A DNA stretch of 20,000 nucleotides, taken from Gonapodya sp. JEL0774 (lineage: Eukaryota). The stretch covers positions 51,679 through 71,678 of the forward strand of contig JADIIX010000112.1 in the NCBI GenBank assembly GCA_027604505.1. Reading direction: 5' to 3'. A model generated the notes under the pieces. It saw only the letters and a list, made by a program, of their open reading frames with translations, was not told the DNA's origin and did no database searches. Position 1 is the first letter of the stretch. Every line of letters begins with the position of its first letter. Positions 1-20,000 of this stretch are shown here, in pieces. The position numbers and the translations under genes are program-made.

Positions 1-1944
1 TGCGGACGAAGTCGCAGCACCGCGTCGTGTTGTTTGCGATGAACCCGACAATGTGGAGTTGCTGGCTTATTTGCACTCTGGCACATCACGGCGAACCAAG
101 TACTGGGCGCGAGACACTCAGCGTGTATTCACAGAGTTCATGGTGTACATGCCCCACTCTTACTTCGTCAACGACCACCGGCAGGGTTTCCGAGAAGAAG
201 AAATCGCCGATATTGATAAGATGGTTACAACTGGGTCAATCATCCCGGTGGAAGGCTACTGTCCTTATCCGGAGATGTTTGAGGATGAAAGCCACCTAAC
301 AGAGGAGGAAAAGGTCAGATGGCGGAAAGAGGAGATCCGACGGCTTCGAATGAGAGCGGAACTGTTCCCGAAGGTTGCGGAAGACACGGTGATTTTCGCG
401 AACTTCAACCAGCTGTACAAGGTGCGCGGAGTAGCCATTGGCTATGACATTTACCCACAACGTAATCAATTTTCATTGTCAGATCGATCCTCTTATCTTT
501 CGTACCTGGTGTAACATCTTGCGAAGAGTTCCAAACTCGATTCTTTGGCTTCTTCGTTTCCCTCCGGCTGGAGAGGTACATTTGAAGCAAAGAGCTAAGG
601 AGTACGGAGGAGAAGAAGTTGCGCAGCGAGTGATCTTCACTGGTGGGTTGATGTTAGTCCCATGTCTCTTGTCACTATCCTCATTCCCTTTCTTCAGACG
701 TCGCATCCAAGCACCTGCACATTCACCGTGGTCGCATTGCCGACCTGTTTCTCGATACTCCTGAGTGTAATGCTCATACGACTGCAGCTGATATCTTGTG
801 GAGTGGAACACCTTTGATCACATATCCAAAGTATGAGTTCAAGATGTGCTCTCGTGTTGCTGCGAGCATTGCGTATGGAACGGGCACGTGGCCTGAAGCA
901 GAGCAAGCGGACATGATGAGGGAGCTTGTTTCGATCCAACACCTGGAAGATACTAACTGGGAGGCGGTGCAGGAGCAAGCCTTGCGGTACGCAGAACAGA
1001 AGGGCAAGATCGTTACAGGAACGTCTTCTCTCCATGGAAACGATAATTGGATAGAGCTTGAAGGAATGAAGCAAATTCGAGGAGGCAAGACCGGTCGAAG
1101 CGAACGGTTGAGAAGCCCGGCGTACCTCGGACACCTGATGGTTTGTACGAGCTATCAGGAGTATGAGGATAGAGCAGTGAGTTTTGGCGCCGGGTTGAAA
1201 TGGGGATGGAAAGCGATTGCACAACCGAACACCAGGACGCTGTCTGAAGTGCATTCGCAAGGTATTACGTGGAACCGCAACGAAGATTCGTTGGATACGC
1301 GGAGCCAAACTCGCCAAACGAGCGGTCAGGGCAAGGAGCTTTCAAGAGAGATAAGCTCGACCGCTCCGACAAAAATCAAACCTCCTTCGGCGGTGCACGC
1401 CCACAATGTAGTACACCAATTTGGACTTGGCTTTTCGACTCCTTTCCTCACAGCTTCAAGTCCAACCACACGAAACCAGTTGCAGACACCGTTCTATCCA
1501 ACGAAAGCCGCGCCAACCCACATATTTGCACCATACGGACCACTCGTTCGACTGAGGAGACGATTGTTTCTCAATCGCGAGGACATGCCCTTGTTTGATA
1601 CGGCAAAATGGGTGCGAGACTTGGAACGGGGTATTTTGGACTGCTGGGCCAGATGGGAGCGCGGCTGGGCGAAGCTGCAAGCGCGCAACAGGCGGGAAAT
1701 CGAAGAGGGTGGGGCCAACGGACTGGGAAGACTGGAATCTCGGGATCCTCCAGGTGCAGGAGAACGAAAGAAGCGCCGACGTGAGGCAGAGAGTAGTACT
1801 TTTGAGAACAATTCGCTGCCGCGTGGGAACATCGGGGGCAGGGCCATCATTCGGCAAAGCGGGTCAGTTGAGCACGTTCAAGGTCGGAGGGTCTCCACCA
1901 GGTGCATCTGGATAGAAGACGAGTTGTTGACTCCTAGATGGTGA
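1..1944 (+). CDS. OGT: O-GlcNAc transferase (glycosyltransferase family 41), C-terminal catalytic part, 5'-truncated by the window. Exons <1-421, 483-642, 698-1944
   Basis: The spliced translation gives GT41 motifs: MPHSYFVNDHRQ, VIFANFNQLYK|IDP, ILRRVPNSILWLLRFPPAGE, RVIFT|DVA, IADLFLDTPECNAHTTAADILWSGTP, MCSRVAASI, YEDRAV and PLFDTAKWVRDLERG. Introns 422-482 (GTGCGC..CAG) and 643-697 (GTGGGT..CAG) restore the frame. Confidence 0.95.
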
Positions 1945-2118: not shown

Positions 2119-4972
2119 ATGGCAGCAGCAGCTTCTCCCGAGCCACCTTCGCCACCATCAACACCTCTTAGTCTGACTGCACGCCTTCGTGAACGCATTT
2201 CCTCCCTTCCCCGTGCTATCGCTTCGCGACCTCTTCGACTAGCATTTTTTGGACTCTTCGTCTATGTAAACGCCCAATCTTACAAAAGACAAAAAGAATT
2301 TCTTACTGTTTCCGATTCAACTGTTCTAAGGTGGCGGCTCGATGTGAGTTTTGGAACAAGATGCTTGTTGCGACAAGGGGAACGAACTGGACAGTACCTT
2401 CGCATTCTCATCCAATGTATCCAATTTCACCCGATTGTCTGACTTGCATTTCGGGATCTCGCGCTGACAGAAAACTTCCATTACGGAAGCTCCCCCGGAG
2501 GCTGGCTTTTCGCTTGGTAGCTTGCTTTCACCGGGTCCAGGAGGGCCGTTGGCGAGCCTTACCCAGAGAGGGGTAACTCTCTACGATTTTATTAAGACTC
2601 TGAAAGATGCAGAGAACGATGAGCGTGTCGTGGGATTAGTACTGGATCTGGCGAGTGCCGGACCAATGGCTGTTCAAGAACGACTGGGGTTGGCCCAAGT
2701 GCAAGAAGTGAAGGAAGCTTTGAACAGCTTTCGAAAAACGAAAATTGAGCAATTCAAGGATACTCCTGAGAAGTGGCAAAAGATGGTTGCTGTCACGGAT
2801 TCCTTCGGTGAGTGACGCGGTGGCGCTGAACAGGCTAGCCCCCTAGCATTGGTGCCATGCTAGAAACTCCGGTGCCTATGCTCCAAGATTCACAGGTTGC
2901 GTATTACCTCGCGTCATCGTTTGACTCCATCTCACTTGAGCCGGTCGGCGTGTTACCCTTGGTCGGTGTAAGCGTGAGTTGTTGAGTGAAAAAGTTTAAA
3001 CGAGAATGACACATCCAGTGACCTCAATGAGGGTTGCATGAAACATCGCCAGACTGTACAACCTTTCGTCAAAAATTTATTAGACAGATTGCAATTGTAC
3101 CCGCGAGTCTTCACCAAGGAACAGTACAAGGGGGTATACTCGTTCCTCCAAGGAACTGGGTTTTCCGACCCTATCCGTGAGAATACAACTTCCTTCGTGA
3201 CATCTTTGAATGATCAGCTCGTGGAGGGCATCGCTCGTGGACGTTGGAGATGGCTTCATAATGCAGAGGACTCACTCAATCGTATCGAACGAGGGGAGTT
3301 TTTGGGAGAATCTGGCGAACCTGAGGACTACGCAGATGTTGTTGTCACACCGCCAGCCTCAGCATCTTATGATGAGGCCACCGAAAAGGAACGTCGTGCG
3401 GCCATCAGCACCGTGGAACGAGTTCTGGACTTGGGAGGTCTTTCGGCCCGAGAAGCGCTATCGTTGGGGCTTGTTGATATCCTGAACTACCGAAGGCTCA
3501 TGGTCGAACGTTTCTCGAAAGAGAAGGCGACTCAAGGAATGTTTGGTGAGAAGAAAGTGAAGGAGAACAAAAGTATGTCTATACCTCGGTGAGTTTATTG
3601 CTCGTGGTTTCCTTCGATGAGCTCGTTCTTGTTTGAAACACATCGGAATGCACTAAGTTACAAAGCTGCCCGAGCGTTTGAAAAACGTACTGGAGTCGCC
3701 CGATACGCGAGCACTGCAGGATATCCTTTGCCCGCAGACGCTACACCATCAATAAATCTGTCGGTTTGGAAAACCGGGGAGAAGCCCAAACCTCCCAACA
3801 AAGTTACTGTCGGCATGGTATATATCACTGGTATGATCAGGAAAGGAGATGGCCACGACGGATCGTCGAACCTTGTTCAAGCACTCGTCGATGCCGGAAA
3901 AGACTCTGATATTGAGGCACTAGTAATAAGGATTGGTGCGCTGAATTTCTGTTTGGCATCTTGAAAAGTCTTGGTTTTGACAGTTGATGATGAACCCCAA
4001 CCAGATTCTGGAGGAGGTGATGCAGGAGCATCCGATACGATTTGGGAAGCAGTAAAAGCCGTTTCTAGTTCCTCGGGAAAACCTATTGTTGCAAGTTTCG
4101 GTAATACGTGTGCTTCGGGTGGTACGTCCAGGACCTGTTGTTGCACAGCAAACTGTTACGCCTCTTGATATCGCCCCTCTGTCAGGTTATTACATCGCGG
4201 CAGCCTGCAACCGAATTTTTGCAAGCCCGGGAACTGTGACAGGTAGCATTGGCGTTGCGGCAATGAAGCCCTACGTTTCTGGAGAATTTTTGGACAAAAT
4301 TGGTGTGACGATTGACAGCATATTTACTTCAGAAGGAGCGAAGAACGGCTCCATCTTCCACGATATCGAGGGTCGAACTCTCGATCGCATGTTGAAGAGG
4401 ATGGAGGAATCGTATGTTATTTTCAAAAAGAGGGTGGCAGAAGGTCGTGGCTGGAGTTTGGATAAGGTGGGGTCCATTGCGGGCGGTAGAGTTTACACTG
4501 GCCTTCAAGCGTACAAGCTTGGGCTCGTTGATGAATTGGGTGGGACTCACGACGCTGTCCGGTACGCGGCGACAAGAGCAATGGAGAAGCGACTGGACAC
4601 TTTACCGGAGGAGCTGAAAGCTATTGTGGAAAAGGTCGGCAAAGTAGGACCACCGGAAGAAGTTGACCTAAAAATATTTCCTGCACCCAAATCGGTGTTT
4701 GCAAGGGGTGAGTTAACAGTGAATGTTCTGTGAGCGGACGAGTTTTCGTTAACGTGCCGACGGGTACAGCTGGTGACTTTGAAGACATCGATAACACTCG
4801 TTGGCTGCGGATGGCCAGCAATTTTGTCTCGGGTGTGGCGATGCAAGTTGCTCGAACAGTGTGGTATTCCAGCGGATCCCACCTTGAATGGGAGCGCAGT
4901 TTGGTCGATTTCCCAGGGCGGATGGAGACACGTTTCGAAGATAGAACTTTAACGACTGGCCTTCGGACATAA
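2119..4972 (+). CDS. sppA: S49 family signal peptide peptidase (SppA/protease IV, two-domain type). Exons 2119-2343, 2471-2807, 2888-2973, 3053-3588, 3658-3935, 4005-4121, 4186-4707, 4770-4972
   Basis: Motifs LKDAENDERVVGLVLDL, LGLAQVQEVKEALNSFR, AYYLASSFDSI, YKG (candidate catalytic Lys), ALVIRI|DSGGG, KPIVASFGNTCASG|GYYIAAAC (catalytic Ser), TGSIGV and IAGGRVYTGLQAYKLGLVDELGG. All seven GT-AG introns are phase-consistent. There is a hydrophobic segment near the N-terminus (LAFFGLFVYV). Confidence 0.92.
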
Positions 4973-6665: not shown

Positions 6666-8502
6666 TCACCCATGAGGGGACACTACCAGAGACCTGAATG
6701 GCTGGATTCCCTTTGCTTCGTTGGAAGGTGCCACGATGGCAACATTTGGACTTGTTGGTGGTCCACGATCAAAGGGAATGTCGAAGACCCCCGACTTCCC
6801 AAAGGATAGTACTTCCATGGGGGGTCGGCTAAATGTATTTTGATGTCGTAGGTATGTTTTTGAGTGGTCTGAGGTCGGGGGGAGGGGAGGGACAGGATTT
6901 CGTGTTTGTTCAGGCGGGGAGCTGGAAGTGGGCGTACAGGATCCAGTTGTGGTACTGCTAGTTTCAGCTTCTCCGTTGCCAGGTACGCGCCATGTGAATC
7001 GCAGTTTCAAGTCAGAGAGGGCTGTAACAGTGGGGATAAGACCTGCGTTTCGTGTTGCTCGCATGGATGTTGGGTACGATTGCGTGCCGTTTGATAAAGA
7101 GTCGTATGTCGAAAAAGAGTGTTGAGTTGCGGTGACTTCCTGTGGAGTAGGGGGTGGTGGGAACATTGCCGGTGGATTGGAAGGGTATGGAGGAAGGGAG
7201 TTGGAGCGGTTCTGGAAATGATGCAAGATACTAGGTTGGCGGCCCTATTGATCGGAATCAGAAATACGTTTGCAGTGAAACTCATCTACAAACAAGAAAC
7301 AGCAATGGATACGTACGGGAACAGGAGGAGATGCGGGTCGATCTTCTGTTGGAGCGGGAAACAAAAATTTCAATCATAGCGATCGCCATCAAGACGCAGA
7401 TGTATTTTACTCCTCACCTCGGTAACGTTTCACACCACCCAATCTGCCCTTGTGTGGGGATGTTCGCCGCTTCCCATTTCCTATTGCCAGCACCACATGG
7501 GAAACAATACGAGTTTCCGGATACATGGAAACGGCTTAAGACACCCGTGAAAAGTTGCAGTCACAACTCACGTCGCTTCCCGGCCTCGGTGCTCCCTTCG
7601 GAGCCTGAGTCAGACGACCATTCGACATATGGAGAGGTCGGCCGGCCAACGTCACTGTTTGTAAAGCGTGATGCAGCATCTCTGCACATATCATTAAAGT
7701 GTGAAAGAGAATGTGATGTGAACTTCGCGCGTCAGAAACGGCAAAACCTGCACCCACCTGGCAGCCTGTCTCGTGCCTCGAGGGCCGAGTCCCAAGCACT
7801 TCTCGAGATGTTGGGCGAACTTCTGTGCGCCGTGGTGTCTACCGCATTCGGGGCAGATGATCGGGTCAAGGCTGTCCACACGTTGGTGGAACGACCGGTT
7901 GTGCGCTAATGGGATTTGACAAGGGGAGGTCGTTTGGTAAGGAGCATTCCTTCACAGAAAATGGCTCCACCAAGACTTTGAGGAACTTGCATCCGATCGA
8001 CTCACATATATCTCGGCAACTTCGAGGGTTACGTTGATAAAATGAAAGGTGCATATCTTTTAGGTAACAACACCAACAGCGCTTTCGAGGAACAAGCTCA
8101 TCAAATCAAGGACAATCCAGCGACATGGCGATTCCAAGTTGTTCAAAAACGACTTTGCAAGCTTTGTGCGTTGGTATTTTCCTGGTCTTCGATGATGGCG
8201 AGATGGGTGGGAAGATTCAGGTGGGGATCCTCCAAACTCACTTTCTCCCACAGACCTGGCAAGGCCTAGTGATGAGCCTGGCGTCCCGAGTCGTTGCCAG
8301 GGCCAATTCGAAGACGCATTCTTCGAGCAAATCGTCGAAAAGCTCCGAATCCTTCCAGAACCAAAGGGTGTTCGGGTGAGGATCGCATTCCCCAGAGCCA
8401 AGGAATTGAGGTTGGAAACGACTCCCGCGTGAGGGGAACTGCGAGAAAAATTGCACACAGGATAAACATCGAACATACCAGAGACTGGCCAGTCTCCGTC
8501 AT
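6666..8502 (-). CDS. SGF11: SAGA deubiquitination module subunit Sgf11/ATXN7L3-like with a long P/S/T-rich tail. Exons 8502-8479, 8351-8242, 8019-8006, 7905-7758, 7681-7572, 7480-7418, 7345-7317, 7244-6666
   Basis: Sgf11 zinc finger ICPECGRHHGAQKFAQHLEKCLGLGPR and an N-terminal helix ELFDDLLEECVFELAL, resembling the Sus1-binding region. The introns are phase-consistent. The exact start and last exon are less certain because a GTGAGT overlaps the stop at 6666. Confidence 0.85.
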
Positions 8503-10725: not shown

Positions 10726-11998
10726 TCTGGGTTTCTGCGATTGGTTTTGTGTGGAATTGTGTGGGCGGCATTTGGAGAGTGACCTCGTGCCTCAGGGATG
10801 CTCAGGGGAGTTGCACGGAACCCACGAGATTCTCGTTGTTCAAACATACTTTTGCACGTACATACATATTAAGAAAGCAACTGAAAGCTACTGCATCGGT
10901 CACCAGTCTTCCTACCAGCACGACATTGTATGTATGATTGTCTGGAACATTAGACGACGGGAACGCACAGTGGTTCCGGATTCCGATGACTCCATGAGGA
11001 CATGAATACATGCCAGCGCACGTTGCAAAGGGGCGCATGTTTGCGGAGGTGTGCGGGGCAAAAAGGGAACTCAGAGCCGCCGCTGTGATGATCATGGAAA
11101 CCTACCCAAACGAAATTTCGAGTGGCTAATAACGGGACACAGCGGCAGAGAGCGTTCTCTTCCTGAGTGTTATTTTATGCATGTAGTACGTGCTGTACCA
11201 ATGAATTCATCTACGGATTAAGGTACATAATAATAACGTGGTGTTGGGCCGGAGGTGGTCCGGCGGGGGCAGGAAGCACAGATCAAGGGGCACCAGAAAG
11301 TTGAAAAGACCATCATTCACTCTCAAGATGAGCTGATCGATGGGCCACTGCTCCCACTGCTCCCACTCCCCATCGTCATCTGCGCAAGGCTCTCTATTCT
11401 TCTCCATCCCGGCCACGCGCATTCCCAACTCCCGCTTCTCCGCTCTGCCCTTGCGAGGATTTCCTTGGTGTCGTGGTGTTATAGGCGAAGCCGACTGACG
11501 TCACTCTTGAGGACAGCCCCTGTCGGAGAGGCGCGTCCGTTTCTCCCTCGGCGCTAACCGCCTCAGGTTTCTGCGGCGCTGCACGCAGAGGTTTGGAAAA
11601 AGGTCGAGACGGTGAACAGTGGCTGACCCAGCGTCCCCCCGTCTACATGCAGCCAAGGGCTTCGTCTCCTTCGGGCGTGGGCAGGCGTCCACTTATAGAG
11701 GGCGGTTGAAGTGGAGCTGATTCCATTCGGTGAGTGGATGTTGCAACACTAGAGTCAGAGCCTTCTTCGCTCGACGTCGATCAGCTTCCTGAGTCACTGT
11801 CGCGGTTTCCCAGGGACCTTGCCCAGTCCGGAGAGGGGACGCAAGCACCACAGTGAAAAGGGAGTACAACGGGCAGCTTACTCCGCCGCGCACTCCGTCA
11901 CATTTAAGGACGTGATTAAGCGCGAGGGAGGTGGAAAGTGGGCTGGTGTTCGCTTTTTAACTACAGCAGGTCCAGTGGCATGGCTGCACATACCGTAC

Positions 11999-12091
11999 CG
12001 TGCGAGTACCCCGACGGTACGTCACTGTGCATGTAACGTGCGAGTACCCCGACGGTACGTCGTTGTTCATTTCACGTGCTAGTACCCCGAC
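11999..12091. repeat. Tandem repeat, 38-bp period, ~2.5 copies
   Basis: CGTGCGAGTACCCCGACGGTACGTC is identical at 11999 and 12037, and a partial copy CGTGCTAGTACCCCGAC starts at 12075. Confidence 0.9.
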
Positions 12092-12579: not shown

Positions 12580-13836
12580 CTAATTCACTGCTCGTAGTTC
12601 CGTGCGGCTAATGAGCTTGATAATCTCATTGTGACCAAGGCGCTTGGCACGATATACTGCACTCATCTTGTATTGAGATGGCGCTCTGGGATCTGCTCCC
12701 AGCTCCAGCAGTTGCTTAACCACATCAGTCTTACCCGAGGCAACAGCATTCCAAAGTACCTTGTTTTCATGAAATTGAACATTGGGGCTCCGACGAAGCA
12801 AAAGAGAGACTAAATCCCAACGTCCACTGCCCTCAGCATATCTCAGCGGCGATCCGTTTTGGGCATTGACGTCTGCTCCACGATCCAGCAGCAGACACAT
12901 CATTTCGACTAGCCCTAACTGAGCTGCCACACATATTGCTTCATTGTCCCGCGTACCCACATCTGCACCCTTTGATAGCAATAGACGGACTGTGTCCAAA
13001 TGGTCACGAACTGTTGCAACCAACAATGGATAGTCCTCAAAGACGTGAATGTCGGCTCCATGACTCAACAGCTCCAACACTACTTCTGATCGTCCAAACT
13101 CTGCTGCTTCACATAACGCACTACACCCCTCCACGTTGTATTCCCTTGGCTCCAAATTGGCCCCTTTTGAGAGAAGCAGTTGCACGATCTCTACGTTTCC
13201 GCAGCGTGAGGCCATCCGCAGGGCTCCATCATGTTGAAAATGAATGTCTGCACCGCGGTCAAGTAGCATCTTTACAGTTTCAAGATGCCCGGTGGAACAC
13301 GCCTCGATAAGAGCGGTATAAACCTCACGGTTATCCCTGCTGGAAATGTCCACGTTCGCACCCAGGTCCAGCAGATACCGCACAACAGCTGGATTTCCAG
13401 CTTTGATCGCAGCTCTTAGCGGGGTGATTGTATAGATTTGATGCTTCTTATTTCCTCTATTGAGTTGACCTGTCCAGTCCAAATTGAAGTCAGGGCGACC
13501 GTTCGACCGGTCGTATATGGCCTTGACGACCAGAGAATCGCCGGTCGAGGAATTCAGACACTCCCAAACAACCGCTTCCATCAACGGTTTGTAGCGGGCG
13601 ATGGCTCGGGCGGCGATGTTGTTTGGCGTGGCGAAAATGGAAGCCAGATGTCGGTCTAGTGCGCCAGTCGGTAGTCCGAGTCGGAAGTCGAGGTAAACAC
13701 CAATGAGGAGGATAACTTCGGCGGGAAGGAGGGATAAAGTTGATGATGGGTGTTGGGAAAGTGGGAGGAGGGAACGGTTGGGCGGGTCGGCACGGGAGCA
13801 CAGGGAATACGAGCGAGAGGACGAGACGCCAGTCAT
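12580..13836 (-). CDS. Intronless ankyrin-repeat protein (~9 repeats) with an N-terminal F-box-like motif, ~418 aa from ATG 13836
   Basis: Repeats such as TPLRAAIKAGNPAVVRYLLDLGANVD and TALIEACSTGHLETVKMLLDRGADIH. LSLLPAEVILLIGVYL resembles an F-box start. The start is assigned to the ATG at 13836; the ORF stays open further upstream. Confidence 0.88.
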   Translation of the reverse strand: MTGVSSSRSYSLCSRADPPNRSLLPLSQHPSSTLSLLPAEVILLIGVYLDFRLGLPTGALDRHLASIFATPNNIAARAIARYKPLMEAVVWECLNSSTGDSLVVKAIYDRSNGRPDFNLDWTGQLNRGNKKHQIYTITPLRAAIKAGNPAVVRYLLDLGANVDISSRDNREVYTALIEACSTGHLETVKMLLDRGADIHFQHDGALRMASRCGNVEIVQLLLSKGANLEPREYNVEGCSALCEAAEFGRSEVVLELLSHGADIHVFEDYPLLVATVRDHLDTVRLLLSKGADVGTRDNEAICVAAQLGLVEMMCLLLDRGADVNAQNGSPLRYAEGSGRWDLVSLLLRRSPNVQFHENKVLWNAVASGKTDVVKQLLELGADPRAPSQYKMSAVYRAKRLGHNEIIKLISRTELRAVN

Positions 13837-14468: not shown

Positions 14469-14502
14469 CAGTCAGTCAGTCAGTCAGTCAGTCAGCCAGT
14501 CA
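14469..14502. repeat. (CAGT)n microsatellite, ~8 units with one variant unit, in the divergent intergenic region
   Basis: cagtcagtcagtcagtcagtcagtcagccagtca read directly from the sequence. Confidence 0.95.
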
Positions 14503-14612: not shown

Positions 14613-17600
14613 ATGGCGCTGGGTGACAATGGCACGACACTGAGTGATTTTCATCCGCTGATTTTCGTCAAGCTATCCCAGACGAGACTGAAACGGAAGC
14701 CGCCCATGCTTACCGAGGCAGCTCGACTTGATGGAGAAGGCTCGCCGAACAACACGATTTATTTCGATCCAAGGAAGAAGGGAAATCTTTGGGGCTTCGA
14801 ATTTCTCTTGTCGTGTGCGGAAAGGAATTGCTGTTGCTATCTAGCGAACGAGGTGGGTTCTGCGTCAAACGGTGTATTCTGGAAAGCCACTTTGACATTT
14901 CACTTTGTAATCAGTTCATTGTCAAGCTGCACGTGTTCTCTGTGAGCAAGAGCGATGGAAAGCTGAAAGACGTCAAAGCTCCTTGTTCCTATCTATTCAA
15001 AGGGACTCACAAGCTAGATGAATCAAACGCCTGTATTTCTTTCAATCTGGAGCCCCAACGCAAGCAGTCTGTCAGCGACAATCTATCAAAGTATGCGGCA
15101 TTTGAGATCCTAACTCCAGAACGGCGTTGGGTCAGCGCTCTTTTTGGTTATCGTTGTTGGGACAACAATCAGACACAACAAATGTCGGCACCGGGGAACG
15201 AGACGAACGAGATTTCTCCCACTCTTGAACTACGTCCTTTACTCACGAGTGAGCAGAAGGATGTACTTAAAGACGCGGACCTATTGCGTGAAATCGGATT
15301 GTTGCAAGACTGGATGGACCTGGAGCAGTCAGGCCCCAAAAGTACACTGATGTGAGTCGTTTTCTCTTTTCCGACGAAGCTCCATCGCGGCTTTGACTAG
15401 TGAGTCGTGATTTTGATCTCGTCGTATGTTCCCCTTTTCATGCACGGAAGTAGCAGTGAGTGCGCTCTACCATCATCGTCTTCCAAATCGAATAAATTGA
15501 ATTGCAATTGTTCTGCTTTCAGACACGGCCCCATTGATGGAAGCCCCAGTGCCCTCGACGAATCATTTTCTTCCCTCGCATCAAGCTCCAGTTGTAACCA
15601 CGAATGTAGTGTCTTCGGGGATCCAATTTGCATTCTCACCAACGAACGTCACGCCGCCACCGATGCAAGCTCCTGCTGCATCCACAAATGTGATATCTCC
15701 ATCTGAGCAAACCCTATTCTCACCCACTCCACTAACGAAACGCATGTCTCGATCAATCCATCCTCCAATGTATCCTCCAATGCAACCCCCATTTCAACTC
15801 AGGGAGTCTGTTTCGCCATCTGCCGAGGCTTGTGATGGGATGGAACTGTCGATTCCGTCATCTTATAACCAAAATGCTCCAATGGAAGTCGGCAGTAAGT
15901 GTCAGAAGTAACTGTTGATCTCCGTTAGCATGGGATCTGTCCCCAAGCCAACAACGCACCAATCATTTGAAGCGTCACCAATGAAAGAGCCAGGGCTGCC
16001 GCATCTGAACCCCAACTTCACGACACTTCGTACACACCCAGTAGTGGTTGTTGAGTGGCCCGACTTTCAAAGTAGGTTAATGGCTTTCACGTAGTTGCCC
16101 GCACATTTTAACATTACACCGGGGCCGTTAAGGTGGTTACGTTAATAAAGTTTTACTCACAAAAATTGATGGAACGGCAGTCGATATAGATGTTCGGCAA
16201 AGCGAACAATATCCTGGTTTTTGGGAAGCTACATTTCCTATGGAGAACCAGGGGTGTGTGGTACAAGTACTTGCTGTCAAATTGATGGGTGTTCGAGTTA
16301 TCGCTTCAAGTGGAAGTGTCCCTTTTACCTACCGCGACGTGGATGGTGAGTGCGAGTACATGATACCATGAGAACAACAAGTGACATGCTTCTCGTCTAG
16401 TTTCACAATTGATGGCTCTCACTCGGCAACAAAAGAGCATTATTGAACAGTATGAACGCCAACTTAATATGTTGCTCACAAATTACGGTGGCAGAAATTT
16501 CTCACCGGGTGAGTGAGCACCGGATGGTCATTTTGCAATACGAATGCCAACATGCGATTTGAGAAGGCATCAGACAATCTCTACCGTACCCACACCTGTT
16601 GGCTTACTGCCGTCGCGATCCTCAGTGGAAAATCTCATATGGACCATCACCGTTGACCCGAGGAACAAGAGTTTTGGTTTCACTGAAAGATCTTGAGATC
16701 GTTAGTTGGGATGAATTTTGGTACGTGAACAAGGTGCTCTGTGGCATTTAGCTTTGGTCTTCAATTGGAGTTCCATACGCAGGCGGTCTTTCACTCTCAG
16801 TCGTGAACCAAATTTTGGCTTCTGGGTGCCTGTCTTTTACGTTCACAAAGGCGTGGTATCAAGAACTTTTGTCCGGCACGACACAGTGTTTGAAACTGAG
16901 GAGTGCATTCTGCTCGCCAAAATCTGGATGATTCTAGCTGCTCGATATTTGAAAAGCTTGGTGGCGACGATCATCACAGAGGAGGGCAAGGCTTTACTTA
17001 ACCACCAATTGAATGTCGTTCAAGAATTTGATCCCTCACAACCCTTGTTCTTGAACACCATGCTGGGCGACAACACTGATGCCGCGAAATCACTTATTCC
17101 AGATACAAATGCACGATCAACGGACATTGTAATAGACTTCCAGAACATCAGTGGCCTCGCCCGTGTTCACATCGGACACAACAACTTGAACAGCATGCTG
17201 GGCAACACTGCTAATGCCGCGAAATCAACGTTTCCCGACTTAAATGCACGAACGGGGGACATAGCAATAGGCAACGAGGACATCGGCGGCTCTGCCCGTG
17301 TTCACATCGGAGATCACATCGAACACAATATTTACTACAACCACCCGACGTAAGTTTCACAATTCGAATCAACAAGGAAACACTTCGTTGACTCTCGCTC
17401 ATTTGATGTCAGACCTACGATCCCAAAAGTGTCTCCAGGAGTTCATTCGGCTCGTTCCTCGTCACCACAGTATTACATTCCATTTCGCCGGAACAAGCAG
17501 TTCGTTGGCCGCGCCAAAACCATCGATGAACTACATCTCAAGTTGTTTCAAGAAAACTGTGGACGCGTTGCTCTTGTGGGACTCGGCGGCGTCGGCAAGA

Positions 17601-20000
17601 CACAGGTTGCACTCGAGTTTGCCCATCGAGTGAAGGACACAGAACGGGACTGCTCGGTGTTCTGGATATCTGCCCTGAGCTGGGAGAGCTTTGAGCTAGC
17701 GTACAACAACATAGCGGAAATATTGGGTATCGGACGCGATGCGGGGAAACAGAAGGATATTCTGAAAACAGTCCACGATTATCTGAGCCAGCGAAAGGCT
17801 GGTCGATGTCTCCTGATCGTGGATAACGCCGACGATGATCGTATTCTGCGTGGCATTGAACCTTTCATTCCCGAGAGTGACGATAGCCGGATCTTGTTCA
17901 CAACTCGCACACGATCCGTGGCCGTCACAGCAGCACAAACGCACATTGTGAGGCTCGACCAGATGGATGAAAAGGAGGCACGCACTTTTTTTCAAACTGC
18001 TCTGATCTGCGGAGAACTTGCTTCAAACGACCCATCTGTTACCGGTGAGCTTTTGAAATATCTCACGTACCTGCCATTGGCGATCAACCAGGCCGCTGCG
18101 TACTTGAATACAAACGAGCCTACTACGTGCAAGCAATACATGGATATCCTCAAGCGCACTGAAAAGGATGGCATGGGGCTCCTGAGTGTCAGTTCCAACG
18201 TTGGAGATGAACAAAGATCCGACATTGCGGTTGCAACGACTTGGGCGGTATCTTTTAACCGGATCCGTGAGCTCAATTCAACTGCTGCAAATCTCCTGCT
18301 CTTCATTGCTTGCATCGAGTCCAAGGAAATTCCGGAATCCATCTTGCCGCGTGCGGAATCTATTACAGATTTTCAAACTGCGATTGGCATCTTGCTTGGG
18401 TACAATTTTCTATCTGTGTCTCGTCAACAAGAAAACAGAACCAGCGAAGTGGTATACACAATGCACCGTCGTGTCCATCTGTCGGCCAAACTTTGGCTCA
18501 GCAAGGAGTCGCGAATGATGGAAGCGGTTAAGAATGCGTGTCAACACATCTCAAACATTTTCCCAACGACTGAATGGAAGAATCGTGAGATTTGGAGGAA
18601 GTACTTACCACACACTGTGAATATTCTCGGGATCAGGGAGGGGAAGGAGCTTGTTGAGAGATATGACCTATGCCACAAGCTGGCAAAGACTATGATGGTG
18701 GATGGAAAATTTGAAGATGCTGTACCATATCTTGAAGAATGTGCTGGTAGGAAGCAGAAACTGGATACTTTGCAACATGATCACCTGAACCGCTCGATGT
18801 CAGAACTGTGGTTCAATCATATCGGCAGACCATTAAGAAACTTCACTCAAACACTTTGGAGCACACCTAACCAGTCTACTGAACGACAGTGGACTGCATC
18901 TGACCTTGATCTGCGGCAGGAGCTCGCACTTGCTTATCTATACAGTGACCAATTTGACAAGGCGGAAGAGTTGTTACTTTTAGTTATCACAGAGAAGAAG
19001 CGCACAATGAAAGATGGGAATCCCTCGCTCCTGCAGTCCCAACACGAACTCGCACGTGCCTGCCGTCTGCAGGGGAAGAAGGAAGAGGCCTTGAACCTGC
19101 TGGCACAGGTCCTTGCCGACAGCAAGAATACGCTTGAGAGTGGCCATGTTGTGCGGCAAGCAATAAAGCAAGATAGGCAGAACTGGATGATTGGTGAGAC
19201 TTAGTACATGCTTCGTTTTTTGTTTGGACTCGTGTGACACAGCCTTCCCATTTATTGCCAGAGGACGTCTTAGCCACATCAGATGGAAGCATGGGCGCAG
19301 TGGTGTGGACTGACGTCCTGAAAACAAACGGCGATGTTGTCGATCTGACAGGTGAGAGGCAACAATCCAGAGAAATGTTTGACTTTGGCAATGAAGGCGC
19401 TGCTCACCTTGTTTGACTTTAACATGCCGTGCATTTACAAGGTAGATCCATTGGGAACGATGGGGCGTCAGTTGTTGCTAATGCACTACGAGAAAACAAG
19501 ATGTGGAGATTCCTCAATCTTAGAGGTGAGTTATTCTCTACAGCAGCCGTCCTCGGAGAATGGTACGCTGTCCCCACACGAATGTGTCCAGTTATGGACT
19601 ATGCGCTCCATCTGCTTCTTGCCCTGCCACACGCTCCCACATGTCATGCTCAAATGCATGCTCTCTCTTCCCAGTCAACTCTATCACTGAGAGGGGCGCC
19701 GAGGCGCTCACTGAGGGATTGAAATCAAACAGCACTCTGGTGCGGCTTGATCTAGGCAGTGAGTTCAGGTTCACCGTGTGTCTGTGTTCTCTCCACCTCA
19801 CCTCATCCCACATGCTCAAACCTCCTGTCCCCACGCAATGACACAGGTAACCTCATCGGCAACACAGGTGCCAGGGCTCTCGCCAAAGCTTTGAGGATCA
19901 ACGGAACATTGTCGTCTCTCAAACTCATAGGTGAGAACCGATTCAGTGTCACAGCTTCTCTGTCTTTCCTCCCTCCCATTGTCCCACACCCTCTACATTC
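14613..20000 (+). CDS. Large multidomain NLR/STAND-type protein, 3'-truncated: unknown N-terminal domain, IPT/TIG-like domain, 2x HET-s-like motif, NB-ARC, TPR, LRR. Proposed exons 14613-14852, 14915-15351, 15451-15455 (micro), 15523-15894, 15973-16071, 16133-16345, 16401-16508, 16567-16720, 16783-17349, 17413-19193, 19262-19351, 19442-19525, 19675-19758, 19847-19930, ...
   Basis: All junctions are GT-AG and phase-consistent, with no in-frame stop in the joined model. The 5' part depends on a micro-exon, so the single-gene model is less certain than the individual domains. Confidence 0.65.
17051..17320 (+). repeat. Coding direct repeat, 135 nt (45 aa) x2, each ending in an ARVHIG amyloid-like motif
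   Basis: LNTMLGDNTDAAKSLIPDTNARSTDIVIDFQNISGLARVHIGHNN versus LNSMLGNTANAAKSTFPDLNARTGDIAIGNEDIGGSARVHIGDHI. GCCCGTGTTCACATCGGA is identical at 17159 and 17294. Confidence 0.92.
17413..19193 (+). CDS. NB-ARC NTPase plus TPR region (one large exon of the NLR gene; unspliced it would stop at 19204)
   Basis: YYIPFRRNKQFVGR, Walker A GLGGVGKT (17579-17602), VFWISA, Walker B LLIVDNAD, sensor ILFTTR, YLPLAINQAAAYL, MHRRV (MHD-equivalent), then TPR-like helices QELALAYLYSDQFDKAEELLLLVI and SQHELARACRLQGKKEEALNLLAQVL. Confidence 0.95.
19442..19930 (+). CDS. Ribonuclease-inhibitor-class (NLRC3-like) 28-aa leucine-rich repeats, one per 84-nt exon
   Basis: Exons 19442-19525 (RSIGNDGASVVANALRENKMWRFLNLR), 19675-19758 (NSITERGAEALTEGLKSNSTLVRLDLG) and 19847-19930 (NLIGNTGARALAKALRINGTLSSLKLI) are each exactly 84 nt, phase 1, with GTGAG donors. 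Confidence 0.93.

What the first reader, a model, noticed from the sequence alone, without database searches (positions are those of the whole stretch)
14613..16508. Transcription-factor-like N-terminus (beta-rich domain plus IPT/TIG-like domain) apparently fused to the NLR
Seen: exons missing from the ORF track (15973-16071, 16133-16345, 16401-16508) splice to PGLPHLNPNFTTLRTHPVVVVEWPDFQSGYVNKVLLTKIDG...GFWEATFPMENQGCVVQVLAVK...SGSVPFTYRDVDVSQLMAL. They are preceded by a P/S/T linker and a ~165-aa domain rich in beta-strand-like segments. Established: IPT/TIG domains end in an FxY motif and follow Ig-fold DNA-binding domains in NF-kB, NFAT and Spt23/Mga2-type factors. Inference: the receptor might couple sensing directly to transcription, or carry an integrated decoy. 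The DNA-binding assignment is speculative.
Basis: partly seen in the sequence, partly recalled or inferred. Interest (0 to 1): 0.75.

Follow-up and report, generated by a model that had tools for sequence, protein, structure and literature searches.

The report
Chimeric chytrid NLR with LRR tail
An early-branching aquatic fungus carries an immune-receptor gene that is predicted to end in leucine-rich repeats, which fungal receptors were reported to lack, and whose front end is likely spliced onto an unrelated orphan gene whose likeness to a transcription factor is unproven.

Summary
The exons are real and at the stated coordinates. The window matches a Gonapodya (chytrid) NCBI model letter for letter. 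One open chain of 14 exons (1,438 aa to the window end) can be built: orphan beta-rich domain, P/S/T linker, IPT-like segment, helix, ~140-aa orphan domain, duplicated HET-s-like motif, NB-ARC, TPR, LRR. The link from the IPT-like exons to the receptor beats chance (9 of 1,500 shuffles at 45-110 nt introns; 546 of 1,500 if introns up to 350 nt are allowed). It needs an AAG or GAG acceptor, and no transcript was seen. The link from the beta domain to the linker needs a microexon or a long intron. The two closest paralogue models start at the Met of 17195, so the extension is private to this copy. The IPT fold and DNA binding were not confirmed: no family or homologue hit, low-confidence models. 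Verdict: new variant of fungal NLR, probably chimeric; the transcription-factor role is speculative.

The parts
14613..14852 (+). exon 1, first half of orphan beta-rich N-terminal domain
   Evidence: ATG, GTGGGT donor, 62-nt intron; codon rank 2 of 6; no family or PDB hit
14915..15351 (+). exon 2, second half of beta-rich domain plus acidic helix
   Evidence: codon rank 1 of 6 in both halves; 0 HMMER hits among 1.84 billion representatives; Atlas best 0.80, chance level
15454..15455 (+). inferred microexon (2 nt, or 5 nt from 15451) that restores the frame
   Evidence: TAG acceptor and GTGAGT donor with 67-nt next intron; such a path exists in 335 of 1,500 shuffles, so not beyond chance
15523..15894 (+). 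P/S/T-rich linker exon
   Evidence: open frame 15501-15911, 40% P/S/T; codon rank only 4 of 6
15973..16071 (+). first part of IPT-like segment (acceptors 15972, 15993 and 16041 are all in frame)
   Evidence: codon rank 3 of 6
16133..16345 (+). main IPT-like exon ending in FTY
   Evidence: AAG acceptor, in P0001; beta strands predicted at low confidence; no Pfam hit
16401..16508 (+). amphipathic helix, possible coiled coil
   Evidence: 5 of 9-10 a/d positions hydrophobic in the best registers; codon rank 1 of 6
16567..16720 (+). connecting exon X1 (needs AAG 16566 or GAG 16563; no Met in frame)
   Evidence: codon rank 1 of 6 but weak score
16783..17050 (+). connecting exon part X2, open into the NLR frame
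   Evidence: ORF 16715-17353; codon rank 1 of 6; weak TRAF4 likeness E 0.034, a lead only
17051..17320 (+). 135-nt tandem duplication of the NLR start; each copy has a Met (17060, 17195) and an ARVHIG HET-s-like motif
   Evidence: 75% DNA identity (TRF); copy 2 is 38 of 39 identical to the N-terminus of P0002, copy 1 is 24 of 39; PF17108 E 0.096 and 0.28, below cut-off
17413..19193 (+). intronless NB-ARC plus TPR exon
   Evidence: PF00931 E 5.9e-17; TPR_12 and TPR_10 above cut-off; Walker A and B present
19262..19930 (+). LRR cap exon (90 nt) and three 84-nt phase-1 exons, each one 28-aa RI-type repeat; probably continues past the window
   Evidence: exon 19675-19758 is 82% identical to an LRR of P0004; PF13516 above cut-off in P0003, P0004, P0017; single window exons alone gave no LRR hit

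Best explanation
The window holds an NB-ARC-TPR receptor gene that is predicted to continue into leucine-rich repeats and is likely transcribed as one chimeric mRNA with upstream orphan exons, whose product would act as an integrated bait or passenger while signalling would still go through the HET-s-like motif. Shown: exon coordinates, open frames, NB-ARC, TPR, the motif duplication, paralogue architecture as annotated. Inferred: (1) the family came from a Pezizomycotina-type PNP_UDP-NB-ARC-TPR ancestor and expanded in this chytrid; (2) one subclade gained host-style exon-per-repeat LRRs as an extra sensor; (3) a smaller subclade swapped PNP_UDP for a short amyloid-like motif; (4) this copy came to lie in frame with the 3' end of an orphan gene near 17045. 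Ligand binding at TPR-LRR, or tampering with the bait, would trigger nucleotide exchange, oligomerisation and templating of an unknown partner.
For: In-frame path 16509 to 17051 is real, and occurs in 0, 9 and 20 of 1,500 shuffles at introns of 50-70, 45-110 (up to 2) and 45-110 nt (up to 3). 8 of 11 reference introns set by eye are 55-69 nt and 2 of 11 end in AAG. The first two AGs after the donor are both in frame. X1 and X2 rank 1 of 6 frames, the CAG frame 5 of 6; control 30 of 36. The NCBI model also joins these exons to NB-ARC, by another acceptor. P0002 and P0003 start at the Met of 17195. All 9 Gonapodya cores form one clade (0.995), the 7 with LRR or cap a subclade (0.892), on contigs of 5 different lengths. 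PNP_UDP in P0005, P0028, P0118. 79 of 79 other named hits are Pezizomycotina genera (classification recalled).
Against: No transcript evidence; all models are automated, and P0003 is itself fused to a multicopper-oxidase piece. With introns up to 350 nt allowed, 49 (one intron) and 546 (two) of 1,500 shuffles pass. The exon 2 to linker join is at chance level (335 of 1,500) and no single intron up to 200 nt makes it. X1 score is matched by 26% of non-coding chunks; linker and first IPT-like exon rank 4 and 3 of 6. A decoy should have a stand-alone homologue; none was found. Motif hit is below Pfam cut-off and I saw no HeLo-type partner among the window ORFs scanned (13 of 101). Changes between the motif copies are mostly non-synonymous, 20 of 23 codons. 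The tree has no outgroup, its nearest sisters are unnamed records, and only the best 120 of 1,333 hits were seen, so transfer is not tested.
Confidence: 0.42

Rival explanations
1. Two separate genes: an orphan gene ending at the stop 16654 (CAG 16573), and a stand-alone NLR that starts at ATG 17060 or 17195 like its paralogues.
For: Both closest paralogue models start at that Met; copy 2 of the motif is 38 of 39 identical to P0002; CAG is the commonest acceptor (8 of 11 reference introns); models in this genome over-fuse (P0003).
Against: It leaves unexplained an 89-codon open frame upstream of the repeats (P 0.024), a typical 62-nt intron at 16721-16782 with a matching frame switch, and the shuffle result.
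Confidence: 0.28
2. A DNA-binding NLR: Ig-fold DNA-binding domain plus IPT dimerisation domain, released or oligomerised by NB-ARC to switch on genes directly.
For: Order beta domain, disordered linker, IPT-like segment, helix resembles Mga2 (domain order in passages of 10.64898/2026.08.31.748402). FTY end motif and a basic patch in exon 1. Bacterial AfsR, a STAND regulator, is a distant NB-ARC relative.
Against: No Pfam, NCBIfam, PDB-sequence, HMMER or Atlas support for either domain. It needs two uncertain junctions. Absent from paralogue models.
Confidence: 0.12
3. A young, decaying chimera: a duplicated NLR fell in frame with a host gene and is drifting without function.
For: 8 deviations at 88 columns conserved in 90% of 120 cores, reached by 3 of 120 sequences; two are private, including MHRR in place of MHRL/MHSL (1 of 120). 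Motif copy 1 shows no synonymous bias.
Against: No stop or frameshift over 1,438 codons; Walker A and B intact; 6 of the 8 deviations fall at columns where close paralogues also deviate.
Confidence: 0.15

Closest known systems
Pezizomycotina NB-ARC-TPR NLRs (PNP_UDP, patatin, HET types; PMC4986451, passages read)
   Same: NB-ARC and TPR, mostly 42-50% identical; PNP_UDP in three Gonapodya paralogues
   Different: LRR tail after TPR (PF13516 in 3 of 120 rows, all Gonapodya); chytrid host; orphan N-terminal exons
NWD2/HET-S amyloid signalling, HRAM motifs (PMC9815663, passages read)
   Same: short N-terminal motif before the NTPase in P0002 and P0003, weak PF17108 hit; doubled in this copy
   Different: NB-ARC not NACHT-WD; hit below cut-off; no partner effector seen; doubled HRAMs are described there at effector C-termini
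NLRs with integrated domains (plants; Sordariales kinase decoys in PMC12258605, passages read)
   Same: extra domain present in one copy of a family, likely taken from a host gene
   Different: no stand-alone homologue found; fusion not shown by transcript
Spt23/Mga2 and NF-kB p105
   Same: domain order: beta-rich domain, IPT-like segment with FxY end, following helix
   Different: no sequence or structural match obtained; no ankyrin or membrane anchor in the same chain; followed by an NLR
Animal NOD1/NOD2 and NLRP receptors (PMC3791470, passages read)
   Same: 28-aa ribonuclease-inhibitor-type repeats; P0003 repeats match RI and NLRP chains; single LRR-encoding exons are mentioned for NOD2
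   Different: NB-ARC plus TPR instead of NACHT; convergent assembly is inferred
Bacterial STAND transcription activators (AfsR; MalT recalled)
   Same: NB-ARC-TPR core; precedent for coupling to transcription (NF053617 E 1.3e-12, far below cut-off)
   Different: their DNA-binding domains are helix-turn-helix types (recalled); none is detected here

Membership tests
Fungal NB-ARC NLR (STAND) | NB-ARC domain above Pfam cut-off with Walker A and B | tested here: met
   62 bits against cut-off 23.5; motifs
Fungal NB-ARC NLR (STAND) | C-terminal superstructure repeats (TPR) | tested here: met
   TPR_12 and TPR_10 above cut-off
NLR with LRR | LRR repeats in the same predicted chain | tested here: met
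   PF13516 above cut-off in P0003, P0004, P0017; window exons align to them. All are gene models.
NLR with LRR | TPR-to-LRR junction seen in a transcript | not testable with these tools
   no reads could be laid
IPT/TIG domain (PF01833, RHD_dimer) | profile match | tested here: not met
   no hit for P0001 or the separate exons; the first strand was never in one query with the rest
IPT/TIG domain (PF01833, RHD_dimer) | seven-strand E-set Ig fold | tested here: inconclusive
IPT/TIG domain (PF01833, RHD_dimer) | terminal FxY motif (feature recalled) | tested here: met
   FTY near 16323-16331; a 3-residue motif is weak evidence
Ig-fold DNA-binding domain (Rel, p53-like, Mga2) | profile or sequence match | tested here: not met
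   exons searched separately
Ig-fold DNA-binding domain (Rel, p53-like, Mga2) | fold of the whole two-exon domain; DNA binding | not testable with these tools
   no stored protein holds both exons; no assay
HRAM / HET-s amyloid motif | profile match to the motif | tested here: inconclusive
   PF17108 13.1 and 11.6 bits against cut-off 24.3; not listed for whole P0002 or P0003 at E 0.1
HRAM / HET-s amyloid motif | partner effector with matching motif in the genome | not testable with these tools
   no genome held
NLR with integrated domain | extra domain in the same protein, with a stand-alone host homologue | tested here: inconclusive
   frame supports fusion; no homologue found

The most novel reading that the evidence does not exclude
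A fungal NLR that both senses and transcribes: Ig-fold DNA-binding domain, IPT dimeriser, double amyloid motif, NB-ARC, TPR and exon-per-repeat LRRs in one chain, built in a chytrid from an ascomycete-type receptor and host parts; a eukaryotic counterpart of bacterial STAND activators.
Probability: 0.12. Interest if true: 0.9.

Novelty: new variant of a known kind. Interest (0 to 1): 0.6.

Why it matters
PMC4986451 reports no LRR motifs in fungal NLRs and no NLR hits in the chytrids then available; PMC9815663 describes ANK, TPR and WD40 in place of LRR. A Gonapodya family that joins NB-ARC-TPR to RI-type LRR exons would be another independent assembly of an NTPase-LRR receptor, caught at an intermediate TPR-plus-LRR stage. 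Paralogues with different N-termini (PNP_UDP, short motif, orphan extension) allow domain shuffling to be studied within one genome. If the orphan part binds DNA, it would be a direct sensor-to-gene link. Searches found no paper describing this family; subscription journals are not covered, and Fig 5D and the per-species tables of PMC12258605 (which included G. prolifera and searched LRR profiles) could hold a case I could not see.

Full report
Setting. The window is intron-rich eukaryotic DNA with O-GlcNAc transferase, S49 peptidase, Sgf11 and ankyrin genes. A search with exon 14915-15349 returned 1 protein among 550 candidates: P0001, an NCBI model from Gonapodya sp. JEL0774. It maps letter for letter onto 15182-19757, apart from one residue split by a junction.

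Observation. A 14-exon chain from ATG 14613 is open to the window end, 1,438 aa. Two junctions are uncertain. First, exon 2 ends in phase 2 and the linker exon needs phase 1; direct splicing stops after aa 286. A microexon ending at the GTGAGT donor 15456, donor 15249, or the 451-nt intron of P0001 repairs this, but such a path arises in 335 of 1,500 shuffles. Second, after donor 16509 the acceptors GAG 16563 and AAG 16566 stay open, while CAG 16573 stops at 16654.

Is the link to the receptor real? Between 16509 and 17050, dinucleotide shuffles allow an open path into the NLR frame in 0 of 1,500 (introns 50-70 nt), 9 (45-110 nt, up to two), 20 (up to three), 49 (one intron up to 350 nt) and 546 (two up to 350 nt). 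Of 11 reference introns that I set by eye, 8 are 55-69 nt and 2 end in AAG. A codon score that ignores stops put 30 of 36 held-out coding chunks first among six frames; X1 and X2 rank first, X1 weakly, and the CAG frame ranks fifth. X1 has no in-frame Met and X2 runs without a stop into the NLR start. I put the IPT-like-to-NLR link at about 0.7 and the whole chain from 14613 at about 0.5; both figures are judgement.

Paralogues. A search with P0001 206-700 gave 1,333 hits; of the best 120, 9 are from the same organism, 79 carry Pezizomycotina genus names (classification recalled) and 32 carry no organism. P0002 and P0003 align at 75% and 78% from window position 17195, beginning at that Met. 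Of 59 other N-termini longer than 40 aa, only these two match any window segment upstream of NB-ARC, and only in the repeat. So the extension is private to this copy as far as annotated proteins show. The window has the NLR start twice, a 135-nt repeat at 75% identity; homology between copies begins near 17045, the likely fusion point. Each copy has an ARVHIG motif with a sub-threshold PF17108 HET-S hit. PMC9815663 (passages) describes such motifs at NLR N-termini and doubled at effector C-termini.

The N-terminal domains. Nothing identifies them: Pfam and NCBIfam, PDB sequences, word searches limited by length, HMMER over 1.84 billion representatives with 0 hits (P0001 itself was not returned, so fused copies may hide in NLR clusters), and the Atlas. 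The single-sequence model of the 71-aa exon has strands but pLDDT 54.6, so the fold is open. The domain order recalls Mga2 (passages of 10.64898/2026.08.31.748402), and the FTY end fits IPT as recalled. That is resemblance, not membership.

The LRR tail. The stop at 19202 lies just behind a donor at 19194. Splicing there leads to a 90-nt cap exon and three 84-nt phase-1 exons of 28 aa each. P0003, P0004 and P0017 pass the LRR_6 cut-off; P0002 and P0019 end in the cap and P0005 in a first repeat; P0028 and P0118 show none. The seven form a subclade (0.892) inside a Gonapodya clade (0.995) in a midpoint-rooted FastTree of all 120 cores, and lie on contigs of five different lengths. Repeated over-fusion at the same place in seven models is less likely than a real architecture, though one predictor made them all. 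None of the 111 other rows lists PF13516. The repeats match ribonuclease inhibitor and NLRP chains. PMC4986451 (passages) found no LRR in fungal NLRs and no NLRs in chytrids. PMC12258605 (passages, section 12, supplement term searches) found as few as one NLR in chytrid species, included G. prolifera, and the term LRR did not occur in its 17 supplements held as text; figures were not visible.

Mechanism. By analogy with STAND receptors (established knowledge), TPR-LRR would hold NB-ARC off until ligand binds, and oligomerisation would cluster the N-terminus. In the paralogues the only N-terminal element is the motif, so amyloid templating of a partner is the likely output (inferred; partner not found). 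In this copy the orphan part most likely rides along as bait or passenger. Walker A and B are intact, but the copy carries two private changes at conserved columns, one in the MH motif, so drift is possible. An intronless NB-ARC exon amid intron-rich genes, ascomycete-only named hits and PNP_UDP paralogues suggest transfer from Pezizomycotina, but this was not tested with outgroups. PMC11291939 (passages) reports NLR transfer into Mortierellomycota from bacteria, not this case. Papers listed were seen only as listings; 10.1101/2024.11.26.625400 and PMC3791470 as passages.

Verdict. Observation partly confirmed, interpretation partly supported. New variant of a known kind; interest 0.6, carried more by the TPR-LRR architecture than by the unproven transcription-factor reading.

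Noticed in passing
window 12580-13836, minus strand: Ankyrin-repeat gene (7 Pfam Ank stretches) head to head with ATG 14613, about 780 nt apart; its N-terminus looks F-box-like (recalled pattern). An IkB-like pairing is speculation.
   Followed up: no
window 14469-14502: (CAGT) x 8.5 microsatellite just upstream of exon 1.
   Followed up: no
window 15352-15461: Three GTGAGT donor hexamers (15352, 15400, 15456) within 110 nt, suggesting microexons or a small duplication.
   Followed up: partly
P0005, P0028, P0118: PNP_UDP-NB-ARC NLRs of ascomycete type in a chytrid; P0005 also ends in an LRR-like repeat.
   Followed up: partly
P0003 residues 997-1062: Model runs into a multicopper-oxidase fragment, probably an annotation over-fusion.
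   Followed up: no
P0001, P0002, P0005, P0017, P0019: All five are flagged partial and end inside the LRR or cap region, suggesting truncated models or assembly breaks in LRR exon arrays.
   Followed up: no
window 18462-18479: MH motif reads MHRR where 93 of 120 cores have MHRL or MHSL type; seen in 1 of 120.
   Followed up: partly
window 16805-16906: Weak likeness to the last strands of the TRAF4 MATH domain, right after a helix and X1 (E 0.034).
   Followed up: partly
window 1-1944, 2119-4970 and 7694-7951 (minus): O-GlcNAc transferase C-terminus with a long insert, S49 signal-peptide peptidase, and Sgf11 zinc finger.
   Followed up: no
window 11995-12091: 38-nt tandem repeat, 2.6 copies, 88% matches, in a GC-rich stretch without an assigned gene.
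   Followed up: no
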